This document shows positions 8,948 through 41,317 of a DNA stretch of 64,000 bases, piece after piece. Each line of letters starts with the position of its first letter. The first letter of the stretch is position 1. The DNA is from Gammaproteobacteria bacterium (GTDB taxonomy: Bacteria > Pseudomonadota > Gammaproteobacteria > UBA4575), in assembly GCA_026706595.1 (NCBI GenBank), contig JAPOYL010000011.1, forward strand, positions 69,686-133,685, read 5' to 3'. The notes below the pieces were generated by a model that was not told where the DNA came from, made no database searches, and saw only the letters and a program-made list of their open reading frames with translations. A program made the translations under genes and the position numbers.

Positions 8948-8948
8948 G

Positions 8949-9758
8949 ATGACTGCGCGAAAACGAAAGCATGCGAACAAAACACCCGTGTCACAAACGG
9001 TGCCCGGTTATTTTTCACTGCGCAGTGCATGGGATGTGCTGGTGATCGCCGTGCTGCTGGGTGTCGTGGCATATGGCGCATACTGGATTCGCACCCACCA
9101 CCCAGGTCTGCTGGCATGGCCGCAGATCCAGCAGGTCACGGTCGAGGGCGAGGTGCATGCCGATGACCGTGAGACCTTCAAGGAGATCGTAACCGCACGT
9201 GTCGCGAAAGGATTTTTCCGTATCCCCATGGGACGGCTGCAACAGGAACTGGCGGAGTTGCCCTGGGTCTACCGGGTCAAGGTCCGGCGCACCTGGCCCG
9301 CCACGCTGGAGGTCACGGTGTACGGGCAAGATCCGATTGCCCGCTGGGGCAAGACGGGACTGATGAATGTGTACGGGGGAATCTTTTTCCCGGAATCCGT
9401 GTCGGCATCCCATACGGCATTACCCATGCTGTACGGGGAAGAGGCTCGCGCCGCAGTGCTGGCCGGTATATTCGAACGCAACATGCGCAGGCTGGAGCCA
9501 TTGGGCCTACAGCTGCAGGGACTGTTCGAGGATGGTCGCCTGTCCAAGCATCTGGTGTTGTCCAACGGGGTCGTACTGGTCCTCGGGCATGGTGAGCTTG
9601 GCAAGAAAGTCACGCGTTTCATGACCGCTTACGAGGAGTACCTGTCTCCACACATGGAGCAAGTGAAGAAAATTGACCTTCGCTATACCAACGGTCTGGC
9701 AGTCGAGTGGAAAGATCCCCAACTGGCAGGAAACTTCAAGCTGGAACACAAGCTATGA
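8949..9758 (+). CDS. ftsQ: cell division protein FtsQ
   Basis: N-terminal TM anchor followed by POTRA and FtsQ domains. Conserved position between ddl and ftsA. Confidence 0.85.
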   Translation: MTARKRKHANKTPVSQTVPGYFSLRSAWDVLVIAVLLGVVAYGAYWIRTHHPGLLAWPQIQQVTVEGEVHADDRETFKEIVTARVAKGFFRIPMGRLQQELAELPWVYRVKVRRTWPATLEVTVYGQDPIARWGKTGLMNVYGGIFFPESVSASHTALPMLYGEEARAAVLAGIFERNMRRLEPLGLQLQGLFEDGRLSKHLVLSNGVVLVLGHGELGKKVTRFMTAYEEYLSPHMEQVKKIDLRYTNGLAVEWKDPQLAGNFKLEHKL

Positions 9759-26862: not shown

Positions 26863-27592
26863 GTGGATCACGCCCGACTGGCCGGCCCCCGAAGGCGTGC
26901 GGGGCCTGTCGACTACCCGCTGCGGGGGCTTCAGCCAGGGCTCCTATTCGGGCTTCAACCTGGGCATGCATGTCGGGGATCGCCCACAACACGTCATGCA
27001 AAACCGCCGGCTGCTGCGCGAGGTCCTGCAGCTCCCGGGAGAGCCCTGCTGGCTGGAGCAGCGCCACGGCACACGGGTGATCCGCCTTCCCGCAACCCCT
27101 GCCAAAGCGCTTCGCGCCGATGCCGCCTACACCAAGGCGCCGGGGATCGTCTGTGCCGTGCAAACCGCGGATTGCCTGCCCGTGCTGTTTTGCGATCGCC
27201 AGGCAAGCTGTGTGGCCGTGGCCCATGCCGGCTGGCGCGGCCTGCTTGACGGGGTGCTGGAAAACACCGTGCAGGCACTTGGGATACCGGCTTCGCAACT
27301 GCTCTGCTGGCTGGGACCGGCCATCGGACCGGCGAAGTTCGAGATTGGCGAAGCCCTGAGGGAGCGGTTCATCGGCAAGATCCCCGGTCTCGCCCCGGCC
27401 TTTGCGCCCGGGCGCGATGGTAAATGCCTGGCCGATCTCTACGGGATTGCAACGAGTATCCTTGCGGCACAGGGCGTGCACACGGTATCCGGGGGCACGC
27501 ACTGCACCTACACGCAACACGAGCAATTCTTTTCCTACCGGCGCGACGGCACCACGGGGCGCATGGCCACCCTGGGCTGGCTGGACCCGTAG
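26843..27592 (+). CDS. pgeF: purine nucleoside phosphorylase / polyphenol oxidase-like YfiH (PgeF, DUF152)
   Basis: DUF152 Cu-oxidase-like domain (HGTRV...ADCLPVLF...AHAGWRG). Overlaps the rluD stop. Conserved rluD-yfiH-clpB order. Confidence 0.85.
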
Positions 27593-27611
27593 CGAAAGTT
27601 CGACCACTGCG

Positions 27612-27640
27612 CTTGAATCGCGCATCCCGTGCCCCCATTT
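27612..27640 (+). promoter_or_regulatory. sigma32 (RpoH) heat-shock promoter of clpB
   Basis: CTTGAA at 27612-27617, a 15-nt spacer, then CCCCATTT at 27633-27640. Sits 38 bp upstream of the clpB ATG and matches the TTGAAA-N13-15-CCCCATNT consensus. Confidence 0.75.
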
Positions 27641-27677
27641 CACAGGAAAGGCAAACATACTTATCCGGAGTCCGAGG

Positions 27678-30284
27678 ATGCGAATTGAAAAGCTCACCGC
27701 AAAATTCCAGCTTGCCCTGCAGGAGGCGCAGTCGATGGCCGCAGGCCGCGAGCACCAGTTCATCGAGCCGGTGCATCTCATGCTGGCGATGCTGGTCCAG
27801 GAACACAGTTCCGTGGCTGCTGTGCTGCAGCGCGCCGGCACCGATGTGGGACAGGTCAGGCAGCGCTGCGAGCAGGCGGTGCAGGGACTGCCCAAGGTGT
27901 CCGGCACGGCGGGTGAAATCCACCTCTCCAATACTCTCGGAAACCTGCTCAACATCACGGACCGGCTGGCCCAGCAGCACGGGGATGAATACATTGCCTC
28001 GGAAGTGTTCGCGCTTGCAGCACTCGAGGACCAGGGGGAGTTGGGCCGGATCCTGCGCGAGGCCGGTGCGGACAAGTCCGCCGTCGCGGCTTCCTTCAAG
28101 TCGATGCGTTCCGGGGAAAATGTCACCGACCCGAATGCCGAGGATACCCGCCAGGCGCTGGGCAAGTACACGGTGGACCTGACCGCCGAGGCCCTGAAAG
28201 GCAAGCTCGATCCGGTGGTCGGGCGCGATGATGAAATTCGCCGTGCGATCCAGGTGCTGCAGCGGCGCACCAAGAACAACCCAGTGCTGATCGGTGCACC
28301 CGGCGTTGGAAAAACCGCGATCGTGGAAGGCCTGGCACAACGCATCGTCAACGGGGAAGTGCCCGAGGGCATCAAGAACAAGAAGCTCCTTTCCCTGGAC
28401 CTCAGCGCCCTGATTGCCGGTGCGAAGTTCCGCGGCGAATTTGAAGAGCGGCTGAAAGCCGTGCTCAAAGAACTTTCCCGGCAGGAAGGACAGATCATTC
28501 TGTTTATCGACGAACTGCACACCATGGTGGGTGCCGGCCGGGCGGAGGGGGCCATGGACGCGGGCAACATGCTCAAGCCTGCGCTTGCCCGCGGAGAACT
28601 TCACTGTGTCGGCGCGACCACCCTGAATGAATACCGCCAGTACATCGAGAAAGATGCAGCGCTTGAGCGGCGCTTCCAGAAAATCCTGGTCGATGAACCG
28701 GGCGTGGAAGATGCGATCGCAATCCTGCGCGGCCTGAAAGAGCGCTACGAGACCCATCACGGGGTGGATATCACCGACCCTGCCATCGTCAATGCCGTCA
28801 CCCTTTCGCATCGCTACATCTCCGACCGGCAGCTGCCGGACAAGGCCATCGACCTGGTCGACGAGGCCGCCTCGCGCATCCGCATGGAAATCGACTCCAA
28901 GCCGGAGTCCATGGACCGGCTGGACCGCAAGCTGATCCAGCTCAAGATCGAACGGGAAGCGCTGAAAAAGGAATCCGATGACGCCTCCAGGAAGCACCTG
29001 GACGAGCTGGAGGCGGAAATTGCCCGGCTGGAGAAGTCCTATGCCGACCTCGAGGAGGTTTGGCGCTCGGAAAAAACGGTCCTGCAAAGCTCCCGGGAAA
29101 CCAAGGAGGCGCTGGAGCAGGCGCGCATCGAACTGGATGCCGCACACCGGGCCGGGGATTTGGCAAAAATGTCGGAGATGCAGTACGGGCGCATCCCCGA
29201 GCTGGAAAAACAGTTGCGTGAGGCGGCCAGTGCGGGCAACGAGGAGAACAGGTTGCTGCGCAACAAGGTGACAGATACTGCCGTCGCCGAGATCGTCTCG
29301 CGCTGGACGGGGATTCCGGTTGCAAAGATGCTTTCCGGAGAGCGCGAGAAGCTGCTGCGCATGGAGCAGGAGTTGCGTGCACGGGTCATTGGCCAGGATG
29401 AGGCGGTACGGGTAATCTCCGATGCCGTTCGAAGATCAAGAGCCGGGATCTCCGATCCGCGTCGCCCGAATGGCTCGTTCCTGTTCCTGGGTCCGACCGG
29501 GGTCGGCAAGACCGAGTTGACCAAGGCCCTGACCGAGTTCCTGTTCGACAACGAGGATGCCCTGATCCGCGTCGACATGTCCGAGTTCATGGAGAAGCAT
29601 TCCGTGGCCCGGCTGATCGGCGCCCCTCCGGGATACGTGGGGTACGAAGAGGGTGGCTACCTGACCGAGGCCGTACGTCGCAAGCCCTACAGCGTGGTGC
29701 TGATGGATGAAATCGAGAAGGCACATCCGGACGTGTTCAATATCCTGTTGCAGGTGCTCGATGACGGGCGCCTGACCGACGGGCACGGCAACACCGTGGA
29801 CTTCAAGAACACCGTGATCGTCATGACCTCCAATCTCGGCAGCGATGTCATCCAGGGGTTTGCTTCGTCAGAGGAGGAAGGTGCGGACCAGTACGAGGAG
29901 ATGAAGGCAGCGGTAATGGCCCTGGTGAACACCCGGCTGAAACCGGAGCTCATCAACCGCATCGATGACTGCATCGTGTTCCATTCGCTGTGCAGGGAAC
30001 ACATTCGCGCGATCACGGAAATCCAGCTGGGTCATCTGCAAAGGAGGGTGGCAGACCGGGATATTACCCTGGACTACTCCGAGGCTGCCCTGGACAAGCT
30101 TGCCGAAGCCGGTTTCGATCCCGTGTACGGGGCTCGCCCCCTGAAGCGGGCCGTGCAGGAAATGGTGGGAAATCCGCTGGCCCAAGCCCTGCTTGCCGGT
30201 GAGATCCGGCCTGGCCAGACCGTCCGGGTCGATGTACAGGGGGACGGGCTGGGCTTTGCCGCCACGAACCCCATGGCCGCCTGA
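27678..30284 (+). CDS. clpB: ATP-dependent chaperone (disaggregase) ClpB
   Basis: Two AAA+ modules ([18 protein letters not shown]), a middle coiled-coil domain, 868 aa. Track ORF 27402 is 5'-extended. Confidence 0.97.
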
Positions 30285-30552
30285 CAAGGCGGTAGTGCCT
30301 CTCAGGAACTGGAAAACGGGGTGTCCGGCGGTTGAGCGGGTCGGTTTTGGGAGCCTGCAGAAGTCAGGCTGGCCCAGGGACGACAGCGGTGGCAAAACCG
30401 AGTGCTACAGGTGATTTTATGGTGTGCAAATAGGTAAACGATTGCGTACTGTTGGCCGATCTGGTAAGGCACCCCAAAAATAAACATAAACATTTGAATT
30501 TAATACACTTTTTAAGGTGATGCCTGCACCTTTCATGCAAACATCGGAGTAT

Positions 30553-30714: not shown

Positions 30715-31869
30715 ATGATGAAACTTATGATTAACGCAAGGTACTGGTTCGCCCCGATCCTGATCATCGTCACGATGTTCGGAGTACTGATGGGCGGCAT
30801 GTTCGTATGGGTCGGACTGCTGCTGTTGGGCGTTGGTATCGTGATCGACACAGCCATGAAGTGGCAAAGTTCCGGTGCAGGCTTTGACCGGAGCGGAGAA
30901 ACGATGGGTGTGCCCTGGCTACAGAACAGCGTGATGTACGTCATGTTGGGAGTATTCGTACTCCTGCAACTGGCGCTCGCATGGCGTATCTACCAGTACG
31001 TCAATGGTGTCCCGCTGAGTGCCGGGTTCGACCATGTCATGTTTGGATTCCTGCCTTATATGAATGGAATCTCCGGACTTGACCTGATCGGTGCCACGAT
31101 ATCCTCAGGCATCTTTGCCGGTATTGGTATTATTTATGGACATGAACTGAGCCATACGAAGGGATTTGCCTTTGCCATTTCCCGCTCAATGATGGCGCTG
31201 AGTGGCAAAGCTCACTTCAGCTATGCACATGTCTATAACCACCATCTGGAACTGGCACACGAAGATGATCCTGCTACGTCACCGCGTGGAAGAACCATCT
31301 ACCGACACTATCCATTGGCCGGAATCGGGCAGTCCCGCTTCCTGTACAGAATGGAGAAGCAACGTCTGGAGCGTCTGGGCAAATCCTGGTTCACATGGGA
31401 AAATCGCTGGCTGCGTGGCTATGCCATGAGCCTGCCGACCCTGTTCCTGTTCTGGTTTGCCGGCGGCTGGATTGGTATTGCCTGCCTGTCAGTTGTATGG
31501 CTGATCTCAAACTTTGAGCTCGAAGCCCTCAACTACATGGAGCATTACGGCTTGATTCGTGAGAAGGGACAGCCGATTGACTATCGTCATTCATGGGACA
31601 ACGCAACAGCGTTCACCAGCTGGTTCTTCATCGAGATTGGCCGTCAGGCAGATCACCATGACCGTGGTGAAACCCACTTCTGGGAGCTGGATGACGTAGG
31701 TGCTCCTAACACCGGATGGGGTTACTTCACCTTGTTTGCCATCGCGCTCATACCGCCGCTTTACCACATGTATATGAAGAAGGAACTGGCAAAGTGGGAC
31801 AGAGAGCGTGCCTCAGAGGGCGAGCGTGCGATTGCTGATCGCCTCAACCGTCAGGTTGGTTACGCTTAA
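30715..31869 (+). CDS. AlkB-family integral-membrane non-heme di-iron hydroxylase (alkane 1-monooxygenase-like / fatty acid desaturase superfamily)
   Basis: His boxes in AlkB order: HELSHTK, HVYNHH followed by DPATSPRGRT (AlkB has EHNKGHH...DPATSRMGE), NYMEHYGL, and RQADHH (the first His of box 3 is replaced by Gln). N-terminal TM helices. Strong RBS. Confidence 0.8.
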   Translation: MMKLMINARYWFAPILIIVTMFGVLMGGMFVWVGLLLLGVGIVIDTAMKWQSSGAGFDRSGETMGVPWLQNSVMYVMLGVFVLLQLALAWRIYQYVNGVPLSAGFDHVMFGFLPYMNGISGLDLIGATISSGIFAGIGIIYGHELSHTKGFAFAISRSMMALSGKAHFSYAHVYNHHLELAHEDDPATSPRGRTIYRHYPLAGIGQSRFLYRMEKQRLERLGKSWFTWENRWLRGYAMSLPTLFLFWFAGGWIGIACLSVVWLISNFELEALNYMEHYGLIREKGQPIDYRHSWDNATAFTSWFFIEIGRQADHHDRGETHFWELDDVGAPNTGWGYFTLFAIALIPPLYHMYMKKELAKWDRERASEGERAIADRLNRQVGYA

Positions 31870-31892
31870 GCTCTGATTTCGGAGAACGCAAA

Positions 31893-31943
31893 TTTTTAGC
31901 ATAGTCATGTGCCCGGGCTTCGTCCCGGGCACATGCGCTAAAA
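31893..31943. terminator. bidirectional rho-independent terminator-like hairpin
   Basis: TTTTT, then ATGTGCCCGGG cttcgt CCCGGGCACAT (11-bp GC-rich stem), then AAAAA. Located directly after the alkB-like stop. Confidence 0.55.
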
Positions 31944-32378
31944 AGAAGCGTTGAATGACGGGGGAAAGCCGGGAACAAAAACAAGGAGAAGATCCCGGCG
32001 AATAACACCTGCGGTCGATAAGAAGAAACTGGACCACGGTGTCGATGAACGACAGGCTGATCTAAACGTTCTGTATGCGAGTCGCACTGTGGAAAGTCCA
32101 GGCAGGAAAGAATAACAATTTGTAATTATCGGTCTTGGGGCCGACACGGCAAGAATCAAGACGGTAAACTTCAATCCTGTACCCAGTGGGCACAGGAGCA
32201 GAGGGGCTCGGGGTCTGGAACCCTGGCATTTACAGATATCAGGAGGACGCTATAAACGTTATGTGCGTGTAGCCGCAGGGACGGCTTATTCTATCCTGAC
32301 TGTTTTTACTACCCTGGGTGACCGGCTTAGGTAACCCCGGACATAACAAACAACTCCAAACATAACGAGGTATAAACA

Positions 32379-33059
32379 ATGTTAGGTGATCATTTGGCGG
32401 ACAAAATGAAATTTTATGGGAACCCCTCATGCCTGCGCAGCGCGATGTGCATGTTCACCGCTGCCGAGAAGGGCGTGGACTTAGAGGGCCACTTTGTCGA
32501 TCCCAATGGAACGGGTGCGGCTGACGTTCAGGCGCTTGCGCCGCATGGCTTGTTGCCTGTACTGAAGGACGTCGATTTCGTCGTTTGCGGACAACAAGGC
32601 ATCATGTCCTATCTGGACGACAAGGGCTTTGGTCCATCCCTGATTCCCCGTAATGGCGTCGTGCGTGCAATCCACTACATGTGGAATCAGCTCGCCACCG
32701 ATATTGCACTGGACGCAGTTGCTGGATTGATGTCCGGTACTGGGGATGCTGCAGCCGCATCGGGGTGCTTCGATCTTCTGAATTCGCATCTGGCATCCAA
32801 GAGCAATCCTGCGCTGCGCGGTGATTTCATTTGTGGAGCCTTCAGTCTCGCAGATATCCACTGGGCTGCCCTGGCACAAGGCTGCATGCTTGCCGACAGC
32901 AGCGATGTGGTGGAGTCCAGACCGGCCGTTGCAAAATGGTGGGGCCTGGTCAAGTCGCATCCCAGCACGAGCAAGGAAAACATCCGCGGCTATGATGTGC
33001 TTCCGACCAAGACGGACATCAGCGGCAACAGCCTGCGTGGTGTCACGATTAATGTCTAG
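32379..33059 (+). CDS. glutathione S-transferase-fold protein, paralog 1
   Basis: Thioredoxin-like N-domain (KFYGNPSC...GLLPVLKDVDFVV.GQQGIMSYL) and a helical C-domain (GAFSLADIHW, KWW). RBS GAGG. Confidence 0.7.
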   Translation: MLGDHLADKMKFYGNPSCLRSAMCMFTAAEKGVDLEGHFVDPNGTGAADVQALAPHGLLPVLKDVDFVVCGQQGIMSYLDDKGFGPSLIPRNGVVRAIHYMWNQLATDIALDAVAGLMSGTGDAAAASGCFDLLNSHLASKSNPALRGDFICGAFSLADIHWAALAQGCMLADSSDVVESRPAVAKWWGLVKSHPSTSKENIRGYDVLPTKTDISGNSLRGVTINV

Positions 33060-33354: not shown

Positions 33355-33561
33355 ATGTATTCATTCAGAGCAATCGTTGTGATGCTGATATTTTCTGCGG
33401 CCGTCTACTACGGCATGGGTATGCTGGGTCTCACTGCAGCCCATTCCGATCCCTTGATGGCGCTTGCCGGAGCAGTGGTCCTGCTGGTGGCTTTGGTCAT
33501 CAACGTATGGATCTATCTCAAGCTCGCTGGCGAGCATCCGTTTAAATGGTTCAAGGAGTAG
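33355..33561 (+). CDS. small two-TM membrane protein (68 aa), unknown function
   Basis: Strong RBS AGGAGGTG 7 nt upstream. Two predicted TM helices. Followed by a strong hairpin. Confidence 0.55.
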   Translation: MYSFRAIVVMLIFSAAVYYGMGMLGLTAAHSDPLMALAGAVVLLVALVINVWIYLKLAGEHPFKWFKE

Positions 33562-33739: not shown

Positions 33740-34408
33740 ATGGGACTATTTTCACGCAAAAAGAAACCTGCCGAGAAGGTTCGTCTACTCGGTCATCCTG
33801 GACATGCCGATACCTGCAAGAGCCTGTACCTGGGTGCTGAAAAAGGGGTTCAGCTGGATCCCGAACTCATTGACATCCGAAGCGAACAGTATCCAGATGA
33901 GACACTGCGGTCAGTGTCACCTTTTGGCAAGCTTCCTTGCCTGGTTGAGGGAGAGGTGGTCACCTCCGGTATTGCGGCCGTATTGCCTTACCTGGATGTG
34001 CGTGGCGGCGGGCAACCGCTGACACCCCGCAAGGCACAGCATTTGGGCACCCAGAATTACTGGATCGAGGTGGGTGCACAGCAGGTGCAGCCAAGGATCG
34101 AGGCCCTGGTGGATGGCCAGCCTGCAGAGGAAGCCAAAGATGGATTGCAAAAGATCTTTGATGGCATGGATGCACATCTGCAAGGCAAGGAGTGCATAGT
34201 TGGCGCATTTTCCTTTGCAGATGTCCATTGGGTGGCCTACCTGCACCTGTTGCATGTAGCAGGCCAGAACAGCCTCATCGACGAGCGGCCCAACCTGAAA
34301 GCCTGGTTCGAGCATATGAAGGTCCGCAAAGGCAGTCACGGCATTGCCTATACGGCTATGCCGTCGGCAGCGGACATTCAGCGAGGCGGATTTGCGAACG
34401 CCGCCTGA
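33740..34408 (+). CDS. glutathione S-transferase-fold protein, paralog 2
   Basis: GKLPCLVEGEVV.TSGIAAVLPYL, GAFSFADVHW, KAWFEHM. Same architecture as paralogs 1 and 3. Confidence 0.65.
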   Translation: MGLFSRKKKPAEKVRLLGHPGHADTCKSLYLGAEKGVQLDPELIDIRSEQYPDETLRSVSPFGKLPCLVEGEVVTSGIAAVLPYLDVRGGGQPLTPRKAQHLGTQNYWIEVGAQQVQPRIEALVDGQPAEEAKDGLQKIFDGMDAHLQGKECIVGAFSFADVHWVAYLHLLHVAGQNSLIDERPNLKAWFEHMKVRKGSHGIAYTAMPSAADIQRGGFANAA

Positions 34409-34454: not shown

Positions 34455-35237
34455 ATGAGTGATTTGTTTGAGTTCGGCCGTGCAGCGGACCCGACGGCGA
34501 GCAGCCAGTACGGGGCAAGCGGCGATATGAAAAAAACCCAGTACGTGCTGCAGCTGCTGGGATTCCCGGGGGATGCGGGAACGCTGAAATGCTTGGTCAC
34601 GGCGGTGGAAGTGGGCATGGAGACTGATTGCGGGATTCTCGATATCACGGCAGGTGCCCATGAGTCGGGTGACTACCTGCAGGTCTCGCCACTAGGCTTG
34701 GTGCCTGCACTCAAGGAAGCCGATTACATCGTCACCGGAGAGTTGGGTATCATGAGCTATATCGAGGCCCGGGGGCTGGGCAAGCGCCTGCCACCCAAGA
34801 ATGCAGGCCTGCTGGCTGCCCAGAACTACTGGGGCGATCTTGCCTGCAGCGAGGCCAAACCGCATGTGGAGTCGATCGTGCAGCAGCGCATTTACGCACC
34901 GATGCAGGGCAAAGACTCTGATGGTGTGGCGGTGGACCAAGCCCGTTCGGGGCTTTCCGCGGTGCTGGATGCCCTGGACGGACAGCTTGCCGGCAAGGAA
35001 TTCATTATCGGAGACTATTCATTCGCTGATATCCACTGGACAGCTTACGTTCATCTCCTGTATGAGGCGGGAGAAGGGGATTTGGTTGATTCCCGCGCCA
35101 ATATCAAGGCCTGGTTTGACCGTATCCGGACACACAAGAGCTATTGCGGGCAGGACATCGTGGCATATGACCTGCTTCCGAAGCTTGAAGGCATAAAAAA
35201 CAAGCAGTTGCACTCGGTGGAAGTGTCAGACTATTGA
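34455..35237 (+). CDS. glutathione S-transferase-fold protein, paralog 3 (with N-terminal ~25-aa extension)
   Basis: LGLVPALKEADYIV.GELGIMSYI, GDYSFADIHW, KAWFDRI. RBS GGAG. Confidence 0.7.
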   Translation: MSDLFEFGRAADPTASSQYGASGDMKKTQYVLQLLGFPGDAGTLKCLVTAVEVGMETDCGILDITAGAHESGDYLQVSPLGLVPALKEADYIVTGELGIMSYIEARGLGKRLPPKNAGLLAAQNYWGDLACSEAKPHVESIVQQRIYAPMQGKDSDGVAVDQARSGLSAVLDALDGQLAGKEFIIGDYSFADIHWTAYVHLLYEAGEGDLVDSRANIKAWFDRIRTHKSYCGQDIVAYDLLPKLEGIKNKQLHSVEVSDY

Positions 35238-35270: not shown

Positions 35271-35711
35271 ATGTGGGGATCATCTAAAAAACAGGACCGT
35301 CAGATCAAGGGTGTTACCGGTGCCATTACACCTTTTGTCACGGATACGCTGGGCAGGCTGGACCCGGAAGATCTCGAGGAAGCCTCGATCAAGCGCAAGT
35401 ATGCGATTTACTACATCTACGGTGCCGTTTTATACTTGGCCGAGTATGATGACCTGGGCAAGGACGTCAAGGCGGTACTGGTCACCAATATCCTGGGCGA
35501 GCAAATGAGCGTCGATCAGGCGGCGATTGACAAACTGCCGGTGACCGAGGACCATGCAGATGCTGTGAGGGAAACGCAGTTCATGATTGAGGGGGCCAGT
35601 GCACTGCGCAACTGGCTGACCACAGGGGAACGCGAAAAGAACGCCGCGTACCTGAAGGAGTTGCTGGATAACCCGGACTGTATAACCGGGGAGAGTGAAA
35701 CAGAGCACTGA
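35271..35711 (+). CDS. hypothetical acidic soluble protein (146 aa)
   Basis: ORF sits 33 bp after GST paralog 3 and is probably co-transcribed. No motif recognised. Confidence 0.45.
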   Translation: MWGSSKKQDRQIKGVTGAITPFVTDTLGRLDPEDLEEASIKRKYAIYYIYGAVLYLAEYDDLGKDVKAVLVTNILGEQMSVDQAAIDKLPVTEDHADAVRETQFMIEGASALRNWLTTGEREKNAAYLKELLDNPDCITGESETEH

Positions 35712-35808
35712 ATCGATTGAATTTTAGGCAGGCCTGGGTATTCGCATAAATGATATTCAGGCGTTATGATAAGTTTAGCGGCAAAAAACAATTAAAAAGG
35801 AGGCGTGT

Positions 35809-35916
35809 ATGTCTGATGGTGGAGGAAATGATGCCATGGTATTCGTGGTCGCAATGGTCTTCGGCGTTGCTGTGATCGTACTCACGTTATACCTGGCTGG
35901 CTTAATTCCTATGTAA
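35809..35916 (+). CDS. small hydrophobic peptide (35 aa, single TM), not in ORF track
   Basis: atg at 35809 preceded by AAAAGGAGG at a 7-nt spacing. Translation MSDGGGNDAMVFVVAMVFGVAVIVLTLYLAGLIPM, then TAA. Confidence 0.5.
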   Translation: MSDGGGNDAMVFVVAMVFGVAVIVLTLYLAGLIPM

Positions 35917-36605
35917 AAAATGGTTCGGGAGCAGAGGGGCTCCTGATCCGTATTCAATTTGCGAAAGGGGGGTTGCAACTTATCCCAGGCTCGTCAAATC
36001 GGCAGACCTGCCGATTTGACCCGTGGGGGCGCAGCCCGTCTCCCTTTCCCGCCCTATAAATCTTTCAGGTTCTTACAGAAAATCTGCCCGGGATTCAGGT
36101 ACAAATACCCGAGACTTTTCCTTTATGCCTGCATATCTGATCATGTTTTGATCACTTTAGAGGGATGATGGGCTGAAGTCCTGGATCAGGGAGTAAAAAA
36201 ACATCGATTCGTGAGGTACGCCTTCAGGTCATGATTCAGTCTACGGGGTACCATTTGCCTTGATTTCACGGTAATATTCGTTACACTTATATGACAAGTA
36301 CGCAGCACCTATAGTGATCCGACCGAAAGGGGCAGGAATAGGCGGCTGTAGAGACATAAGAATCAGGCTGCTCAAAGCCGCGATAGAGAGGAAAAAGGGG
36401 GATCTGGATTGACACTGACAGCAATATGCAATGCCAGCCTCAATTCAATCTGTACAACTTACTTCTGTCAAAACCAAATCGTCAGCCACCTGTAAATCAT
36501 ACGACTAGCGGCTGACATGAGAATAAGAAATTCAAACAAAATTTTAGTTAGCAAAATTCATCGTAACCAATCAAACAAGACTACTTATAACCGGGAGGGT
36601 AACCA

Positions 36606-38132
36606 ATGAGAGAAGTTTTTAATCGGTGGTTAGCAATTGCGTTGCTGGCATCGCTGGCCATTTCAGGGACTGCCTATGCAGGCCCGTACGGCTACGATCT
36701 GCACAACGTGCTGGCTCCACGTTCAGCGGGTATGGCGGGTACCAGCATTGCCAAGCCTCTGGATAACGTGTCGGCAATCTTTGGTAACCCTGCCGCATTG
36801 ACGGACTGGACGGGAACGGAGTTCACGTTTGGTGCCACTTACTACAAGCCCGAAGTCAGACTGGATCACTCGGGGGCCTTCAATCTTCCGACCTATGCAG
36901 GTTCGGTACCTGATGCTGTCTTTGGTGAATTTGCGGTACCGGGGCATTCTAAAGAAGGAGGTACTGCCATCGTATGCGGTAACCCAAACGCGTTCTGTAT
37001 TCCCGATGCAGCATTTGACGACGCGGTCAACGGCAACGAGGGCTACATCGTACCGCAGGTGGGTGTGACACAGGATCTGCGGCCGCTCGGCTTGCCCGCT
37101 GTACTGGGCGCGGGACTGACCGCTGTTTCTGGTATCGGTGTGGAGTTTCGTCATGTTGAAGAAACCCTGGGACTGGGCGCGGAGTTCATCGTCCTGGGCG
37201 CGAACTTCTCCCTTGGCTGGGAGCTGAATGAGCGGGTATCTATTGGTGGTGCAGCTACGATAACGTATGCCTACTTGGACCTTGGCTTAGCAGCGACTTC
37301 AGGCGTAACTCATGACACCGGCATGCGTGGAACACTAGGCTTGACTTACGAAGATATCTTGCCAGGTACCCGGTTGGGCGTGTTCTACATGACGGAACTA
37401 CAGCATGTGTTTGACGACATTATTGCCGTACCGCCTGATGATTATGCGCCAGCGCAAGGTGACGCATTCGAAGGATATGGTGACGATGCACCGGTTCGCT
37501 ACGCCTCCATTCCTATTGAGGAGCCGCGTACGATTGGTATCGGCATCTCCAATGAGACCTTCATGGACGGCAACCTGCTGGTTGCAGCCGATGTGATGTG
37601 GAAGAACTGGGAAGAGGCCGACTTCTGGGGCGATGTCTACGAGGACCAGATGGTCTACAGCATCGGTGCCCAGATGAAGATGGGCAACTGGCGTTTCCGT
37701 GCCGGGTATGGCTATGCCGATGATCCGACGGATCGAGATGCACAGGGCGTCAAGGGACTACCCTATGTCTGCTCTTCAGCAACGAGATGTAATGTAATCC
37801 CTGTAGGCAGTGGGAATGACAGCATATTGCATCTTGGGCAATCAGTCCTTGAGTACCTGCAGGCTTCACAGACCGAGGTGATCTATCGCCACCGCGCCAC
37901 GCTAGGTGTGGGGTACATGGGCTTCCTGGCTCCGTTCCTGAACATTGACGGCCATGTAGGCGTGCAGTTCAAGGAGCGCAACCACTACAGTGCGGGTCCT
38001 GTCCAGACAGCAGGCGTTGTTAGTGCTAATGGGGTAGACCTAGGTCCTTTTGATGGATCAGCAACAACCACGGCCGCAGATGTCTGGTCTTGGCATGCAG
38101 GCTTTGCTCTGACCTGGAACTTCCAGTACTGA
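36606..38132 (+). CDS. FadL/TodX-family outer-membrane hydrophobic-compound transporter
   Basis: Signal peptide ending AYA. N-terminal hatch motif IFGNPAAL (the NPA motif of FadL/TodX). Alternating beta-strand pattern. C-terminal aromatic WNFQY. Confidence 0.75.
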   Translation: MREVFNRWLAIALLASLAISGTAYAGPYGYDLHNVLAPRSAGMAGTSIAKPLDNVSAIFGNPAALTDWTGTEFTFGATYYKPEVRLDHSGAFNLPTYAGSVPDAVFGEFAVPGHSKEGGTAIVCGNPNAFCIPDAAFDDAVNGNEGYIVPQVGVTQDLRPLGLPAVLGAGLTAVSGIGVEFRHVEETLGLGAEFIVLGANFSLGWELNERVSIGGAATITYAYLDLGLAATSGVTHDTGMRGTLGLTYEDILPGTRLGVFYMTELQHVFDDIIAVPPDDYAPAQGDAFEGYGDDAPVRYASIPIEEPRTIGIGISNETFMDGNLLVAADVMWKNWEEADFWGDVYEDQMVYSIGAQMKMGNWRFRAGYGYADDPTDRDAQGVKGLPYVCSSATRCNVIPVGSGNDSILHLGQSVLEYLQASQTEVIYRHRATLGVGYMGFLAPFLNIDGHVGVQFKERNHYSAGPVQTAGVVSANGVDLGPFDGSATTTAADVWSWHAGFALTWNFQY

Positions 38133-38152: not shown

Positions 38153-38187
38153 GAAAAAAGGGGTGGCATATGCCACCCCTTTTTTTG
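38153..38187. terminator. rho-independent terminator (bidirectional)
   Basis: AAAAAA, then GGGGTGGCATATGCCACCCC (a perfect 20-nt palindromic hairpin), then TTTTTTTG. Confidence 0.85.
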
Positions 38188-38327
38188 TTTCTGACCATAT
38201 TCCCAAAAGTTCCATTTGAGAATACAGGGACTAGTCCCTATCAGAGCCTTGTACAGTCCAAATTATTGGAATTTCAAATTTGATCATAGACATGTCATAT
38301 CAGCTTTTTCTAACAACACCCGTTTCA

Positions 38328-38374: not shown

Positions 38375-38426
38375 TTGTGCCTTGCTCCGCAGGACACACA
38401 TAACAATTGTTGGAGGTTTTATAACG

Positions 38427-38807
38427 ATGGATAAGAAACGTCGTGATTTTAATAAGCTGATGGTGGCTGCAGCAGCTGGATTGATGGCTGGAAGCCAGAC
38501 GGTTGCCTTGGCGGGTCACCCGGGCCATGAAGGTTGTCCGAAGCATAGCTGTAAAGGCCAGAATGAATGCAAGGGCAAGGGTGGCTGCAAGTCAAGCGAC
38601 AACGGTTGCGCAGGCAAGAACTCATGCAAGGGCAAGGGTGGTTGTGATCCAGCCCACACGTATGAGAAGCATGCCTGTAAGGGCCAGAATGCCTGCAAAT
38701 GCCAGGGTGGCTGCAAGTCAGGTGACAACGGCTGTGCCGGTAAAAATTCATGTAAAGGCAAGGGTGGCTGCCAGCTTCCAGTTGACCCCAGCCACATGGA
38801 AGGATAA
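38427..38807 (+). CDS. Cys-rich exported precursor-like protein (bufferin/HvfA-like, DUF2282-type), 126 aa, 13 Cys
   Basis: GGAGG RBS. Twin-arginine signal KRRDFNKLMVAAAAGLMAGSQTVALA. Two 34-aa repeats, each with 6 Cys in a CKGQNxCKGKGGCKSxDNGCAGKNSCKGKGGC pattern. Immediately upstream of a DUF692/DUF2063 pair. Confidence 0.75.
   Translation: MDKKRRDFNKLMVAAAAGLMAGSQTVALAGHPGHEGCPKHSCKGQNECKGKGGCKSSDNGCAGKNSCKGKGGCDPAHTYEKHACKGQNACKCQGGCKSGDNGCAGKNSCKGKGGCQLPVDPSHMEG
38544..38771 (+). repeat. tandem intragenic repeat (2 units of ~102 nt, period ~126 nt) encoding the 6-Cys modules
   Basis: Near-identical nucleotide blocks (tgcaagggcaagggtggctgcaagtca...). They explain the overlapping repetitive ORF-track translations at 38503-38835 on both strands. 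Confidence 0.8.
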
Positions 38808-38967
38808 GCAGTACCTAGCAACTCACTTGTTGTAAAGTTCTGACATTTCCAAAAACGGTTTGAGCATCAACAGGGCTACCGAGTACGGTATGCCCTGTTG
38901 ATTGCTTGAATCCTTTCTCTACTGGTAACATGCTTACCAGGCAAATCTGATTCACAAGGTGGTTTCT

Positions 38968-39819
38968 GTGTCTGTAAAAAACCGCTGGAACTTCCCTGAC
39001 CTTGGACTTGGAATCGGGCTTCGCACAGTCCATTTCAATCACGTTCTTGAACACTGGCCCAAGGTGGACTGGTTCGAGATCCTGTCCGAGAATTTCATGA
39101 ACACGGAAGGAAATCCCGTACGTGTGCTGGACCAGATTGCAGAACGCTACCCGATTGTCATGCACGGGGTTTCCATGTCGATCGGCAGCACGGACCCCAT
39201 CGATTTTGACTACTTCACAAGGCTGAAGGCCCTGGCCGAACGGGTGAACGCCCACTGGCTTGGAGACCATGTCTGCTGGACCGGGGTGCATGGGAAAAAC
39301 GGCCACGACCTCTATCCGCTGCCCTACAATGAGGAATCCTTGGCCTTTCTAGTGGACAGGATACGCACCGTCCAGGATTTCCTGGAGCGTCCCCTGATCC
39401 TGGAGAACCCCTCGACCTACCTGGCCTTTGCAAATTCCACCATGCCCGAAGAGGAATTCCTGGCCCGCATGGCCGAGGAGTCGGACTGCGGACTGCTGCT
39501 GGACGTCAACAACGTCTATGTCACCTGCCGCAACCACGGACTGGATTCCATGGCTTATCTGGATGCGCTCCCCTATGACCGGGTGGTGCAGATTCATCTG
39601 GCCGGGCATACCGACAAGGGTACGCACTGCATCGACACGCACAACGGCCGGGTCATTGACCCGGTGTGGGACCTGTATGCCGAGGTTCAGCGCCGCGCCG
39701 GAAACCGTGCCACGTTGATTGAGTGGGATGCCGACATTCCTTCGTTTGAAGAGGTCCATGCCGAGGTTCTGAAGGCGGCGCAATTCCGCCAGATGACCGA
39801 ACTGCGCCATGCCTCGTGA
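38968..39819 (+). CDS. DUF692 family protein (MbnB/BufB/HvfB-like multinuclear-iron TIM-barrel enzyme)
   Basis: Xylose-isomerase-like TIM barrel with conserved His/Asp/Glu ligand pattern (HGVSMSIGS..., HVCWTG, ENPSTY, QIHLAGH, LIEWD). GTG start with AAGGTGG RBS. The track ORF starts 9 nt upstream. Confidence 0.8.
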
Positions 39820-40663
39820 CGACTCGCGGCTGGAAAGCCTCGAGCAATGGATGTATTTGGTCGTAAGCCACCCTGAGGGTGCCAAGGCCGGAGTCGAAGC
39901 AAGTTCCAAGCTGGATAGTGACGCGGCACACGACCTTGAACAAACCGTCCTGCCTTCCGATAAACTGACTCCGCTGGAGTGCGTCTCGGTCTATGCCGAC
40001 ATGTACTTCTGGCGATTTATCGAGATTATGGCCGGGGAATACCCGACCGTGCAGCACATCCTTGGAGAGGAGTTGTTCAACCAAGTAGTCAGGGATTACA
40101 TTGCACATCATCCCTCGACGCACTACAACCTGAATCGCCTGAGCATCAAGTTCCCGCATTACCTGGAAAAGGAGGTCACGGATCTTCCGCACCAGCCTTT
40201 TGTGGTTGCAATCGCCACGGTTGAACGTGTCATGGAGGATGCCTTCGATGACCCGCATCGGGAGAAGATCTCCCCGGAGGCTATCCAGAGCATCCCGGGG
40301 GAGCAATGGGGCGACATCCGGCTGCAGTTCAACCCGGCCCTGTATCTACTGGAACTGGATTATCCGGTCAATGACTATATGACGGCGGTGAATGAAAACC
40401 GCCATATGGACATCCCGCAGGCCGATAAGACATTTGTCGTGGTGTATCGTTGCGATTACACGGTCTGGCGTGAAGACCTGGACTATGAAAGCTACCTGCT
40501 GTTATCGCGGCTTAAGGACGGGGAGTCCTTGGGTGAAGCCCTAGAGAGTTGCACCCTGCAAGAAGGTGTTGACGCCGACAAGATTACGGCCAGCTTGGGT
40601 GAGTGGTTTCAGCGATGGACTGCCCAGGAATTCTTCTGCGGTCTTGAAATCGATTCTGATTGA
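39809..40663 (+). CDS. DUF2063 family protein (MbnC/BufC/HvfC-like partner)
   Basis: Overlaps the DUF692 stop by 11 nt, suggesting translational coupling. About 280 aa, consistent with the obligate DUF692-DUF2063 pairing. Confidence 0.7.
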
Positions 40664-40776
40664 CTCCAGCCTGAACCTGTAAAAGATGTAAGGGCCAAGA
40701 ATGGCCTGAGCCTGATAGGTGGTCGAAGTGCAAGCCCACCAGAGGCTACTAGTTGGGGTCAGTAGAGTTCGGTGTG

Positions 40777-41106
40777 TTATGGGATGCAGCGAAAGACCGC
40801 AAAGGTCTGCTGCCCGCGATCCACTTTCGACATCGGTACGACCGTGTCACCGCCCATATGGATTGCACTGTTGCGTGCCAGACGCTGTAACTGGTGTGCA
40901 ATCGTGGAAGGACTTTTGGGTACGAGACCCAAGTATTTCTCGCCGATACTGACCGTTGCCCCGCCATTTTTCTGGCAGTTTTTTACATCATCGGGGCTTA
41001 GCACGCGTGCTTTTTCCCCTTCAATGGTCAGTTCGATGGTTTCACAGGAGGCCAGGACAAATAAGGTCGCAGTTACCAGGACTGCAATTCGAAGTTTGGA
41101 AATCAT
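40777..41106 (-). CDS. small lipoprotein (109 aa), unknown function (RcsF-like size and Cys pattern)
   Basis: Signal peptide with lipobox LASC. No reliable family assignment. Confidence 0.5.
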   Translation of the reverse strand: MISKLRIAVLVTATLFVLASCETIELTIEGEKARVLSPDDVKNCQKNGGATVSIGEKYLGLVPKSPSTIAHQLQRLARNSAIHMGGDTVVPMSKVDRGQQTFAVFRCIP

Positions 41107-41317
41107 GGCCGATTCAGTTGTGGGTCGGTATGGATGTGTCGCCGATCTGTTACCTTCAGACCCCGCAAATGGTACAGGAATATGTATAAAAAATACAGAA
41201 CCGTTCCTGAAGTGTAGTGTCTAGCTGACCAAAATTATGAGGGCGCCGGCGTTGCTTGTTTTGGGCTTGAGTTTACTTTCTTCTGACGTGTACCGGCCCG
41301 CCAAGTATTCCTTTGCA

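What the first reader, a model, noticed from the sequence alone, without database searches (positions are those of the whole stretch)
30715..31869. AlkB-like hydroxylase with Gln replacing the first His of the third histidine box
Boxes 1 and 2 and the NYxEHYGL motif are canonical (HELSH, NHH...DPATS, NYMEHYGL). The third box reads RQADHH where AlkB has RHSDHH. QxxHH third boxes are typical of front-end desaturases rather than alkane hydroxylases. This enzyme may therefore have hydroxylase/desaturase hybrid character or an altered substrate.
Basis: partly seen in the sequence, partly recalled or inferred. Interest (0 to 1): 0.5.

Follow-up and report, generated by a model that had tools for sequence, protein, structure and literature searches.

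The report
Gln-variant AlkB monooxygenase, possible DMS oxidiser
This gene encodes a membrane iron enzyme of the alkane-hydroxylase (AlkB) type in which one iron-binding histidine is always glutamine; it belongs to a tight, uncharacterised marine family whose Methylophaga member is strongly switched on by dimethylsulfide, so it is a testable candidate for a long-missing dimethylsulfide-oxidising enzyme.

Summary
ORF 30715..31869 (+) encodes 384 aa with HELSH, HVYNHH, NYMEHYGL and RQADHH. Alignment to the solved AlkB structures puts Gln311 opposite the first His of box 3, which is an Fe2 ligand.

The Gln is not an error. All 260 family sequences that cover the box have RQ[A/G]DHH, and both Gln codons are used.

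The family is tight and isolated. Members are 62-99% identical to each other. The nearest relatives, ferredoxin-reductase-type AlkBs, are only about 31% identical and all keep His.

The predicted structure (pLDDT 92.8) matches only AlkB in the PDB (TM 0.78-0.79). The "desaturase hybrid" idea is therefore not supported. The Gln looks convergent with front-end desaturases.

In relatives the gene heads an operon that also encodes:
- a truncated globin
- a small ferredoxin
- a GST-like protein
- a XylA-type reductase
- a 67-aa membrane peptide
- a FadL/TodX porin

In Methylophaga thiooxydans this operon lies about 8 kb from methanethiol oxidase. Published data show 29-136-fold induction on dimethylsulfide (DMS).

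My best reading is a functional AlkB-type monooxygenase for a small hydrophobic substrate, most likely DMS. The substrate is inferred, not shown. The window's own operon lacks the reductase, ferredoxin and globin.

The parts
30715..31869 (+). AlkB-fold membrane di-iron monooxygenase, Gln-box subfamily (384 aa)
   Evidence: ORF and translation. Pfam FA_desaturase 1.8e-24. PDB sequence hits are AlkB 8sbb and 8f6t. AF2 model pLDDT 92.8. Foldseek finds only AlkB, TM 0.78-0.79.
31141..31155 (+). His box 1, HELSH (H143, H147)
   Evidence: Invariant His columns. They correspond to Fe1 ligands H137 and H141 of FtAlkBG.
31228..31245 (+). His box 2, HVYNHH (H172, H176, H177). It has family-specific Asn175 (Gly in relatives) and Ala171 (Glu in relatives).
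31531..31554 (+). NYMEHYGL motif (E276 and H277, which correspond to Fe2 ligands E271 and H272 of FtAlkBG)
31642..31659 (+). Box 3, RQADHH. Gln311 (CAG, nt 31645-31647) replaces the Fe2-ligand His (H311 in FtAlkBG numbering, H321 in 8sbb numbering).
32379..33059 (+). GST-like protein 1. It is the orthologue of the GST-like gene that follows the hydroxylase in 40 of 80 related loci and has a conserved P-x-C motif near the N-terminus.
   Evidence: Pfam GST_N_2. Clustering and synteny. 47% identical to the M. thiooxydans operon GST.
33355..33561 (+). Small (68 aa) two-helix membrane peptide, conserved in the operon
   Evidence: tblastn with the M. thiooxydans 67-aa ORF: 46% identity, E 7e-15. Present in 42 sources.
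33740..34408 (+). GST-like protein 2 (paralogue)
   Evidence: Pfam GST_C. Cluster c1.
34455..35237 (+). GST-like protein 3 (paralogue)
   Evidence: Pfam GST_C and GST_N. Cluster c1.
35271..35711 (+). Conserved 146-aa protein of unknown function (cluster c10); it follows the GST genes in 14 loci
   Evidence: No Pfam hit.
36606..38132 (+). FadL/TodX/XylN-family outer-membrane channel for hydrophobic compounds
   Evidence: Pfam Toluene_X 6.5e-10. 31% identical to the FadL of the M. thiooxydans operon. Cluster c7 is found downstream of the hydroxylase in 18 loci.

Best explanation
The gene encodes a working AlkB-fold integral-membrane di-iron monooxygenase from a distinct, strongly conserved marine gammaproteobacterial subfamily.

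Metal site (inferred from alignment):
- Fe1 keeps its five His ligands.
- Fe2 is held by three His, the Glu of NYxEHYGL and Gln311 in place of the fourth His.
- Several second-shell residues differ from the nearest AlkBs: A171, N175, E307, D313, D316, H321.

Electron supply: in most relatives, electrons come from NADH through a XylA-type [2Fe-2S]-FAD reductase, with or without a 59-aa ferredoxin, encoded in the same operon. In the window's lineage that reductase is not encoded nearby.

Other operon parts and their inferred roles:
- A FadL/TodX porin brings a small hydrophobic substrate across the outer membrane.
- A truncated globin, present in relatives, may supply or buffer O2.
- Cys-type GST-like proteins may deal with a thiol or electrophilic product.

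Most likely substrate: dimethylsulfide (DMS) or a close methylated-sulfur analogue. Hydroxylation of a methyl group would give a hemithioacetal. That would fall apart to methanethiol and formaldehyde, feeding methanethiol oxidase and sulfide oxidation.

Shown here: the fold, ligand conservation, an invariant Gln, operon composition, and the DMS induction and mtoX linkage of the Methylophaga orthologue.
Inferred: metal binding by Gln, the electron path, the substrate and the product.
For: Fold and ligands:
- AF2 model with pLDDT 92.8 and pTM 0.91.
- Foldseek finds only 8f6t and 8sbb, TM 0.78-0.79.
- 8 of 9 His plus Glu276 are invariant.
- Gln311 aligns with H311, an Fe2 ligand.

Selection on Gln:
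- 260/263 family sequences have RQ[A/G]DHH, and both Gln codons are used.
- Within-family identity is 62-99% (median 70%), against 26-36% to the nearest relatives.
- The whole family falls into one 50%-identity cluster among 1.84 billion representatives.

Operon:
- The hydroxylase is followed by a GST-like gene in 40 of 80 loci. A Fer2-FAD-NAD reductase gene lies in 38 of the 80 loci; some of these sit beside a molybdopterin oxidoreductase rather than in the hydroxylase operon.
- A tblastn search of the window plus 88 loci, including M. thiooxydans' own four and two AlkB reference loci, finds matches to the 59-aa ferredoxin in 31 sources, the 67-aa peptide in 42, the globin in 22 and the FadL in 23.
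- The reductase is 41% identical to XylA. Its best PDB sequence matches are oxygenase reductases: BenC, MMOR and T4moF.

DMS link:
- The M. thiooxydans DMS010 family member (EEF81234.1, 'Fatty acid desaturase domain protein') heads the same operon about 8 kb from an SBP56 methanethiol oxidase and a SCO1/MauG gene.
- Table S6 of PMC6548844 gives these DMS versus methanol transcript values:
  - 'Fatty acid desaturase domain protein' MDMS009_226: 1359 vs 10
  - NAD-binding oxidoreductase _61: 618 vs 12
  - cyanoglobin _199: 601 vs 21
  All three are on the '-' strand, as expected for this operon.
- MDMS009_82, 9.3-fold up in the DMS proteome, is 91/91 identical to the SCO4226-like ORF of the same operon.
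- That paper reports no dmoA or DMS dehydrogenase in any Methylophaga and says an unrecognised monooxygenase may exist.
- M. sulfidovorans, another DMS degrader, carries the same operon.
Against: - No enzymology exists for any family member.
- The equation of MDMS009_226, _61 and _199 with the operon genes rests on annotation strings and strand, not on sequence.
- The DMS-induced FadL-type porin MDMS009_906 is listed on the '+' strand. It may therefore be a different copy.
- PMC6548844 cites Boden et al. 2010 as finding no DMS monooxygenase activity in DMS-grown M. thiooxydans. Its authors read the induction as membrane-lipid repair under H2O2 stress.
- mtoX lies within reach of the operon only in Methylophaga (L080, L085), not in the other 80-odd loci.
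- The window itself has no mtoX, reductase, ferredoxin, rubredoxin or globin in 64 kb, so its electron donor is unknown.
- Whether Gln binds iron cannot be told from sequence.
Confidence: 0.4

Rival explanations
1. It is an ordinary n-alkane 1-monooxygenase. It would be a divergent AlkB that oxidises medium- or long-chain alkanes such as marine pentadecane or hexadecane, with ferredoxin-reductase-type electron supply. On this view the Gln is a tolerated ligand variant with no change of substrate class.
For: - AlkB fold and motifs.
- The nearest relatives are AlkBs of hydrocarbon degraders (Marinobacter, Hydrocarboniphaga, Ketobacter, Hydrocarboniclastica, Polaromonas CJ2). These also use a Fer2-FNR partner, fused or adjacent. 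PMC8918992 reports that the fused class is active on alkanes.
- A FadL-type porin is in the operon.
- Methylophaga-like alkB sequences are counted as alkB in marine metagenomes (PMC4021335).
Against: - The conserved operon has no alcohol or aldehyde dehydrogenase or acyl-CoA ligase. The Polaromonas and GPo1-type clusters do have them (versus 18, 67).
- Conservation is extreme and the gap to all other AlkBs is sharp.
- Carriers are mainly sulfur-oxidising symbionts with 1.6-2.1 Mb genomes and restricted methylotrophs.
- Induction is by DMS, not a hydrocarbon.
- In an oil-exposure metatranscriptome, the Methylophaga transcripts that rose were methylotrophy genes, not alkB.
Confidence: 0.22
2. 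It oxidises some other small hydrophobic compound taken up through the FadL porin. Candidates are a methyl halide, a short alkene such as isoprene whose epoxide the GST would open, or a sponge or algal metabolite. DMS would then be only a gratuitous inducer or a side substrate.
For: - The layout of hydroxylase, XylA-like reductase and XylN/TodX-like porin is generic for hydrophobic-substrate oxygenases.
- GSTs accompany epoxide-forming and dehalogenating pathways (established knowledge).
- The window lineage has three GST paralogues and no mtoX nearby.
Against: No positive evidence for any specific alternative. The only expression data available point to DMS.
Confidence: 0.2
3. It is a membrane-lipid-modifying enzyme: a desaturase or acyl-chain hydroxylase for lipid homeostasis under oxidative stress. 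This is the reader's hydroxylase/desaturase hybrid idea and the interpretation offered by Kroeber and Schaefer.
For: - QxxHH is the front-end desaturase signature, and Gln is essential there.
- The second genomic context places the gene next to FabA and a MerR/B12-binding regulator.
- The authors of PMC6548844 suggested lipid repair.
Against: - AlkB fold, with no structural match to SCD1 or Scs7p.
- No cytochrome b5 domain.
- NYxEHYGL is specific to AlkB and XylM.
- A porin, a dedicated reductase, a ferredoxin, a globin and a GST make an odd set for an enzyme acting on the cell's own lipids.
Confidence: 0.1
4. It is an inactive relic or a sequencing artefact: loss of a metal ligand has killed catalysis.
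For: In GPo1 AlkB the ligand histidines are reported as indispensable (PMC10110569).
Against: - The ORF is full length.
- Identity is 62-99% across hundreds of independent sequences.
- Gln is invariant and encoded by both codons.
- All other ligands are kept.
- Copies within one genome are kept identical.
- Transcription is induced 136-fold in M. thiooxydans.

Confidence: 0.02

Closest known systems
AlkB alkane 1-monooxygenase (P. putida GPo1 type; Fontimonas thermophila structures 8SBB and 8F6T)
   Same: Same fold (TM 0.78-0.79). The helix pattern of the model matches the six-transmembrane-helix AlkB architecture. His boxes 1 and 2, the NYxEHYGL motif with its Glu, and the last two His of box 3 are all present. 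Eight of nine His ligands are conserved.
   Different: The first His of box 3 (Fe2 ligand H311/H321) is Gln. Identity is only 23-25%. The box 2 context is HVYNHH, not EHxxGHH. There is no rubredoxin or rubredoxin reductase. Relatives use a Fer2-FNR reductase. No alkane-catabolic genes are in the operon.
Ferredoxin-reductase-type AlkBs: fused ferr_ferrR_AlkB (Limnobacter, Polaromonas naphthalenivorans CJ2 pPNAP01) and the unfused pair in Hydrocarboniclastica marina
   Same: These are the closest sequence relatives (26-36% identity, E about 1e-50). Box 2 is of the HVY(G/N)HH type. The electron donor has the same Fer2-FAD-NAD architecture, fused or adjacent.
   Different: All keep His (RHSHHH or RHxDHH). 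Their sequence diversity is normal (38-100% within the group, against 62-99% in the Gln family). In the one fused cluster inspected (Polaromonas CJ2) the gene sits next to a GMC oxidoreductase and an acyl-CoA ligase. PMC8918992 reports the class as active on alkanes.
XylM/XylA xylene monooxygenase of the TOL plasmid pWW0 (with the XylN porin)
   Same: Same operon logic: membrane hydroxylase, [2Fe-2S]-FAD reductase and FadL-family porin. The hydroxylase is 28-30% identical and the reductase 41% identical to XylA.
   Different: XylM keeps His at the Gln position (NHINHH). The xyl operon carries benzyl alcohol and benzaldehyde dehydrogenases. The Gln-family operon instead carries a GST, a globin and a small ferredoxin.
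Front-end (delta-4/5/6/8) fatty-acid desaturases with a QxxHH third box
   Same: The same residue change at the analogous position of the third histidine box. Gln is essential there (PMC5215697, PMC6130074).
   Different: A different branch of the superfamily. They have a cytochrome b5 fusion with HPGG, which is absent here. They lack the NYxEHYGL motif. No structural match to the desaturase or hydroxylase folds in the PDB was found. The resemblance is convergent, not common descent.
DmoA dimethylsulfide monooxygenase of Hyphomicrobium sulfonivorans
   Same: Only the proposed reaction (DMS + O2 + NADH giving methanethiol + formaldehyde), and only if the best explanation is right.
   Different: DmoA is an unrelated soluble flavin-dependent enzyme (established knowledge). 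It is absent from Methylophaga genomes (PMC6548844).

Membership tests
AlkB / membrane alkane hydroxylase family | FA_desaturase-superfamily domain and the AlkB fold | tested here: met
   Pfam PF00487 1.8e-24. Foldseek hits only 8f6t and 8sbb, TM 0.78-0.79.
AlkB / membrane alkane hydroxylase family | His box 1, HE[L/M]xH | tested here: met
   HELSH at 143-147, invariant His.
AlkB / membrane alkane hydroxylase family | His box 2, EHxxGHH | tested here: inconclusive
   All three His are present (H172, H176, H177). The flanking Glu is Ala171 and the Gly is Asn175 throughout the family.
AlkB / membrane alkane hydroxylase family | NYxEHYGL motif with the Glu and His ligands | tested here: met
   NYMEHYGL at 273-280.
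AlkB / membrane alkane hydroxylase family | His box 3, (LQR)HxxHH: all nine His ligands present | tested here: not met
   RQADHH. Gln311 replaces the first His in all 260 family sequences that cover the box.
AlkB / membrane alkane hydroxylase family | Rubredoxin / rubredoxin-reductase electron supply and alk catabolic genes nearby | tested here: not met
   No rubredoxin in the 64-kb window. Relatives carry a Fer2-FNR reductase and a 59-aa ferredoxin instead. The conserved operon has no alcohol or aldehyde dehydrogenase.
AlkB / membrane alkane hydroxylase family | Terminal hydroxylation of n-alkanes | not testable with these tools
   Needs an enzyme assay. No characterised member was found in the searched literature.
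XylM/XylA-type two-component membrane monooxygenase | Hydroxylase encoded next to a [2Fe-2S]-FAD-NAD reductase | tested here: inconclusive
   A reductase of this type is present in 38 of 80 related loci and in Methylophaga. It is absent from the window and its closest relatives L001-L008.
Front-end fatty-acid desaturases | QxxHH third box | tested here: met
   QADHH. Motif definition from PMC5215697.
Front-end fatty-acid desaturases | Cytochrome b5 domain (HPGG) and the acyl-lipid or acyl-CoA desaturase fold | tested here: not met
   Pfam finds only FA_desaturase. No desaturase-fold match in the PDB.
DMS monooxygenase (functional class) | DMS-dependent O2/NADH consumption giving methanethiol and formaldehyde | not testable with these tools
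   Indirect evidence only: DMS induction of the orthologous operon and mtoX adjacency in M. thiooxydans.

The most novel reading that the evidence does not exclude
The Gln-box AlkB family, with its XylA-type reductase, is the missing membrane-bound dimethylsulfide monooxygenase of marine methylotrophs and sulfur-oxidising bacteria, including sponge symbionts. It would convert DMS to methanethiol and formaldehyde. The His-to-Gln change at Fe2 would be the adaptation of an alkane hydroxylase active site to a thioether substrate.
Probability: 0.35. Interest if true: 0.85.

Novelty: new variant of a known kind. Interest (0 to 1): 0.62.

Why it matters
Three reasons.

1. The nine-His site of AlkB was reported as invariant and indispensable (PMC10110569). 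A large natural family that replaces one ligand with Gln, under strong selection, is a ready-made probe of how that unusual long-distance di-iron centre works.

2. These sequences are abundant in marine metagenomes (clusters of up to 341 member sequences). Surveys count them as alkB (PMC4021335). If they do not oxidise alkanes, estimates of marine hydrocarbon-degrading potential are inflated.

3. The first enzyme of DMS degradation in Methylophaga has been unknown since at least 2010. This analysis names a specific operon that can be tested directly. It would also link DMS to the energy metabolism of sulfur-oxidising sponge symbionts.

Tried and rejected
- NCBIfam gives no hit for the query, nor for bona fide AlkB or XylM, so it is uninformative.
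- An Rfam scan of 29.5-39 kb found only a sub-threshold PrrB/RsmZ hit. No riboswitch lies upstream of the gene.
- Promoter and terminator scans around the gene give no more sites than shuffled sequence.
- I searched the window for a reductase, rubredoxin, globin, small ferredoxin and MtoX, and for decayed remnants in the intergenic gaps. None was found.
- Literature searches for AlkB with Methylophaga, sponge symbionts with alkane monooxygenase, 'Porisulfidus' and 'Oxydemutator' found no functional study of the family. A search for DMS monooxygenase with AlkB also found none.
- The supplement of PMC6548844 does not hold the sequence of MDMS009_226, so the tag-to-protein link could not be shown by sequence. 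Only MDMS009_82 could be.
- The predicted model's coordinates are not exposed, so I could not measure the distance from Gln311, or from the new invariant His321, to the metal site.
- I considered a pseudogene or sequencing error and rejected it on the conservation data.
Full report
**1. The observation**

ORF 30715..31869 (+) is open for 384 codons. It contains these motifs:

| Motif | Residues | Nucleotides |
|---|---|---|
| HELSH | 143-147 | 31141-31155 |
| HVYNHH | 172-177 | 31228-31245 |
| NYMEHYGL | 273-280 | 31531-31554 |
| RQADHH | 310-315 | 31642-31659 |

Pfam assigns one FA_desaturase domain (E 1.8e-24).

The only solved structures with detectable sequence similarity are the two Fontimonas thermophila AlkB entries (8sbb E 3e-28, 8f6t E 2e-25). 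Both ungapped local alignments put Gln311 under the first His of RHSDHH.

I also aligned the protein with XylM of pWW0, a GPo1-type AlkB, the fused Polaromonas protein and the unfused Hydrocarboniclastica protein. The placement is the same. H143, H147, H172, H176, H177, H277, H314 and H315 are invariant columns.

The condition 'alignment places a His here after correct gap placement' is not met.

**2. Which ligand is replaced**

Chai et al. (PMC10113152) assign the ligands as follows:
- Fe1: H137, H141, H167, H172, H314
- Fe2: H171, H272, H311, H315 and E271

Counting through the 8f6t alignment, the SEQRES index is 3 higher than the paper's numbering. Gln311 of the window protein then corresponds to H311, an Fe2 ligand. 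This residue is H321 in the numbering of Guo et al., PMC10110569. That paper calls the nine His invariant across species and indispensable.

**3. The Gln is a selected, clade-defining character**

- The first search gave 1227 homologues. All 111 of the best 120 (68-90% identical) in which the regex located box 3 have RQ[A/G]DHH, and all 120 have HVYNHH.
- Over all family sequences fetched, 260 of 263 have RQ[A/G]DHH. The other three are fragments.
- At the DNA level CAG (47 times) and CAA (37 times) are both used. Gln is therefore kept through synonymous change.
- An exhaustive HMMER search of 1.84 billion 50%-identity representatives shows one full-length representative for the family (71% identity). 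The next full-length hits are at about 33% identity, E about 1e-50. Every full-length hit below the gap in which box 3 could be located has His at this position, as RHSHHH or RHxDHH.
- Identities:

| Comparison | Range | Median |
|---|---|---|
| Within the family | 62-99% | 70% |
| Family to outgroup | 26-36% | 31% |
| Within the outgroup | 38-100% | 47% |

- 26 positions are fixed differently in the two groups. Many sit at the metal boxes: A171 (Glu in relatives), N175 (Gly), E307 (Asn), G309 (Thr), Q311 (His), D313 (His), D316 (Ala) and H321 (Pro).

The Fe2 environment has thus been remodelled as a package.

**4. The fold**

An AlphaFold2 model was built on 102 sequences. It has mean pLDDT 92.8 and pTM 0.91.

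Foldseek against the PDB finds 8f6t (TMq 0.79) and 8sbb (0.78). Nothing else has E below 0.001. In particular no SCD1, Scs7p or other desaturase or hydroxylase structure appears.

QxxHH is indeed the hallmark of front-end desaturases, and Gln is essential there (PMC5215697, PMC6130074). But those enzymes carry a cytochrome b5 domain and belong to another branch of the superfamily.

The resemblance is convergent. 'Hybrid hydroxylase/desaturase' is not supported.

**5. Source and distribution**

The window is identical over this gene (100% in the tblastn match) to chromosome OZ242174.1, a 1.85-Mb gammaproteobacterial MAG.

Relatives occur in:
- Ca. Porisulfidus and Ca. Oxydemutatoraceae (sponge-associated sulfur oxidisers)
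- Thiothrix, Cocleimonas and Thiogranum
- Piscirickettsiaceae, 'Chromatiales' and 'Thiotrichales' MAGs
- Methylophaga

Sources name them 'fatty acid desaturase', 'alkane 1-monooxygenase' or 'hypothetical protein'. I found no characterised member.

**6. Gene neighbourhood**

I clustered the ORFs of 80 genome loci, ran Pfam on representatives and did a tblastn survey for small genes. Two recurrent contexts emerged.

*Context A* reads, in order:
1. hydroxylase
2. truncated globin (Bac_globin)
3. 59-aa Fer4_19 ferredoxin
4. GST-like protein with a conserved P-x-C motif
5. Fer2 + FAD_binding_6 + NAD_binding_1 reductase
6. 67-aa membrane peptide
7. FadL/TodX porin

The reductase is 41% identical to XylA. 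Its best PDB sequence matches are BenC, MMOR and T4moF.

The layout mirrors xylM-xylA...xylN of the TOL plasmid. It also mirrors the Fer-FNR partners, fused or adjacent, of the nearest AlkB relatives.

*Context B* places the gene divergently from a MerR/B12-binding regulator and FabA.

*The window lineage (L001-L008)* has a reduced form of context A:

| Part | Coordinates |
|---|---|
| Hydroxylase | 30715-31869 |
| GST-like 1 | 32379-33059 |
| 68-aa peptide | 33355-33561 |
| GST-like 2 | 33740-34408 |
| GST-like 3 | 34455-35237 |
| Conserved 146-aa protein | 35271-35711 |
| FadL/TodX | 36606-38132 |

It has no reductase, ferredoxin, rubredoxin or globin anywhere in the 64 kb, and no decayed remnants. 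ClpB lies upstream.

**7. The link to dimethylsulfide**

Kroeber and Schaefer (PMC6548844) compared M. thiooxydans DMS010 grown on DMS and on methanol.

Their Table S6 lists these among the most DMS-induced transcripts:

| Locus tag | Annotation | DMS vs methanol | Strand |
|---|---|---|---|
[quoted passage not shown] | MDMS009_199 | glbN cyanoglobin | 601 vs 21 | - |

The family member of strain DMS010 is EEF81234.1 / WP_008290017.1. UniRef names it 'Fatty acid desaturase domain protein'. It is 69% identical to the window protein.

Its contig GG657883.1 carries the context-A operon on the minus strand. The operon lies about 8 kb from an SBP56 methanethiol oxidase gene and a SCO1/MauG gene.

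Table S5 gives the sequence of MDMS009_82, which is 9.33-fold up in the DMS proteome. That sequence is 91/91 identical to the SCO4226-like ORF of the same operon.

So one operon member is tied to DMS induction by sequence. Three more are tied by annotation and strand. The porin tag is on the other strand and may be a second copy.

The same paper states that:
- no Methylophaga genome has dmoA or DMS dehydrogenase
- DMS monooxygenase activity was not detected in earlier work

M. sulfidovorans, also a DMS degrader, has the identical operon.

**8. Mechanistic reading**

DMS is sterically a propane analogue. Methyl hydroxylation by an AlkB-type centre would give CH3-S-CH2OH. That decomposes to methanethiol and formaldehyde, which is the DMS monooxygenase reaction (established chemistry; inference here).

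Methanethiol oxidase would then give sulfide, which these sulfur oxidisers and M. thiooxydans can use.

Suggested roles of the other parts, all inferred:
- The porin would admit the volatile substrate.
- The globin could buffer O2.
- The Cys-type GST-like proteins could handle thiol or formaldehyde adducts.

A softer, more oxygen-rich Fe2 site (3 His + Glu + Gln) might disfavour unproductive sulfur ligation or S-oxygenation. This last point is speculation.

I give this substrate assignment about 0.35-0.4. The more general claim is that this is a functional AlkB-fold monooxygenase subfamily with a conserved Gln ligand variant and ferredoxin-reductase-type electron supply. I hold that claim at about 0.85.

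**9. Rivals**

- *Ordinary alkane hydroxylase (0.22).* It fits the fold and the nearest relatives. It does not fit the operon content, the carriers, the tight conservation or the DMS induction. In an oil-exposure metatranscriptome the rising Methylophaga transcripts were methylotrophy genes.
- *Another small hydrophobic substrate (0.2).* This cannot be excluded, especially for the window lineage with three GSTs and no mtoX nearby.
- *Lipid desaturase or hydroxylase (0.1).* It is contradicted by the fold and the operon.
- *Relic or artefact (0.02).* It is excluded by conservation.

**10. Novelty and score**

The protein fails one defining feature of AlkB, the nine-His site. I therefore do not file it as a plain member. 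It is a new variant of a known kind.

The bare motif observation is of moderate interest. The isolated family, the remodelled Fe2 site and the concrete, testable DMS lead raise it to 0.62.

Noticed in passing
Locus pairs L016/L017, L029/L038, L020/L030, L035/L036, L026/L027, L032/L037, L044/L046, L053/L059, L051/L060 (about 7986-9232 in each): Nine genomes carry two copies of the Gln-box gene, one in the reductase/GST operon and one next to MerR-B12/FabA. The two copies are 99.4-100% identical in DNA over the coding region only, and the flanks are unrelated. This looks like ongoing gene conversion that keeps one enzyme under two regulatory regimes.
   Followed up: partly
window 38382-41224 (+): A bufferin/MbnB-like RiPP cluster. 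It has a Cys-rich repeat precursor ORF with a signal-like N-terminus (38382..38807, CKGQNxCKGKGGC repeats), an MbnB_TglH_ChrH enzyme (38959..39819, E 8e-106), a DUF2063 partner (39809..40663) and a 150-aa ORF (40772..41224).
   Followed up: partly
window 33355-33561 (+): A 68-aa two-helix membrane ORF lies between GST-like genes 1 and 2. tblastn matches to its Methylophaga homologue are found in 42 of the 89 sequences searched. It was missed by my 90-aa ORF cut-off.
   Followed up: partly
L085 6781-9590 (-); also L022, L039, L055, L057, L065, L070, L078, L080, L089: A CbbQ/NorQ-type AAA+ gene and a VWA (NorD/CbbO-like) gene are transcribed divergently from the hydroxylase in Methylophaga and some other lineages. 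Such pairs are known as metal-insertion or remodelling chaperones, so a role in loading the di-iron site is conceivable.
   Followed up: no
L017, L019, L026, L029, L030, L032, L036, L046, L051, L053, L072, L073 (about 7411-7806): MsrB (methionine-R-sulfoxide reductase) lies directly upstream of the hydroxylase on the same strand in 12 loci. This is another methyl-thioether/sulfoxide enzyme, though the adjacency may be coincidental.
   Followed up: no
window 31870-32378 and 35712-36605: Two long gaps (509 and 894 bp) lie inside the apparent operon and hold no credible ORF. In relatives the first gap holds the globin and ferredoxin genes. No remnants are detectable.
   Followed up: yes
window 38153-38239 (-): A weak PrrB/RsmZ-like Rfam match (22.4 bits against a gathering score of 44, E 0.07) just downstream of the FadL gene. 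It is probably chance.
   Followed up: no
Proteins P0127, P0128, P0133 and many others; L083, L082: The nearest AlkB relatives carry RHSHHH in box 3, with the Asp of RHSDHH replaced by a third His. Several are fused to Fer-FNR domains at the N-terminus (754 aa) or carry C-terminal extensions (786 and 742 aa).
   Followed up: no
window 27369-30395, both strands: Many long ORFs overlap clpB (27402..30284) on the opposite strand and in other frames. I take them to be overlapping-frame artefacts, not genes.
   Followed up: no
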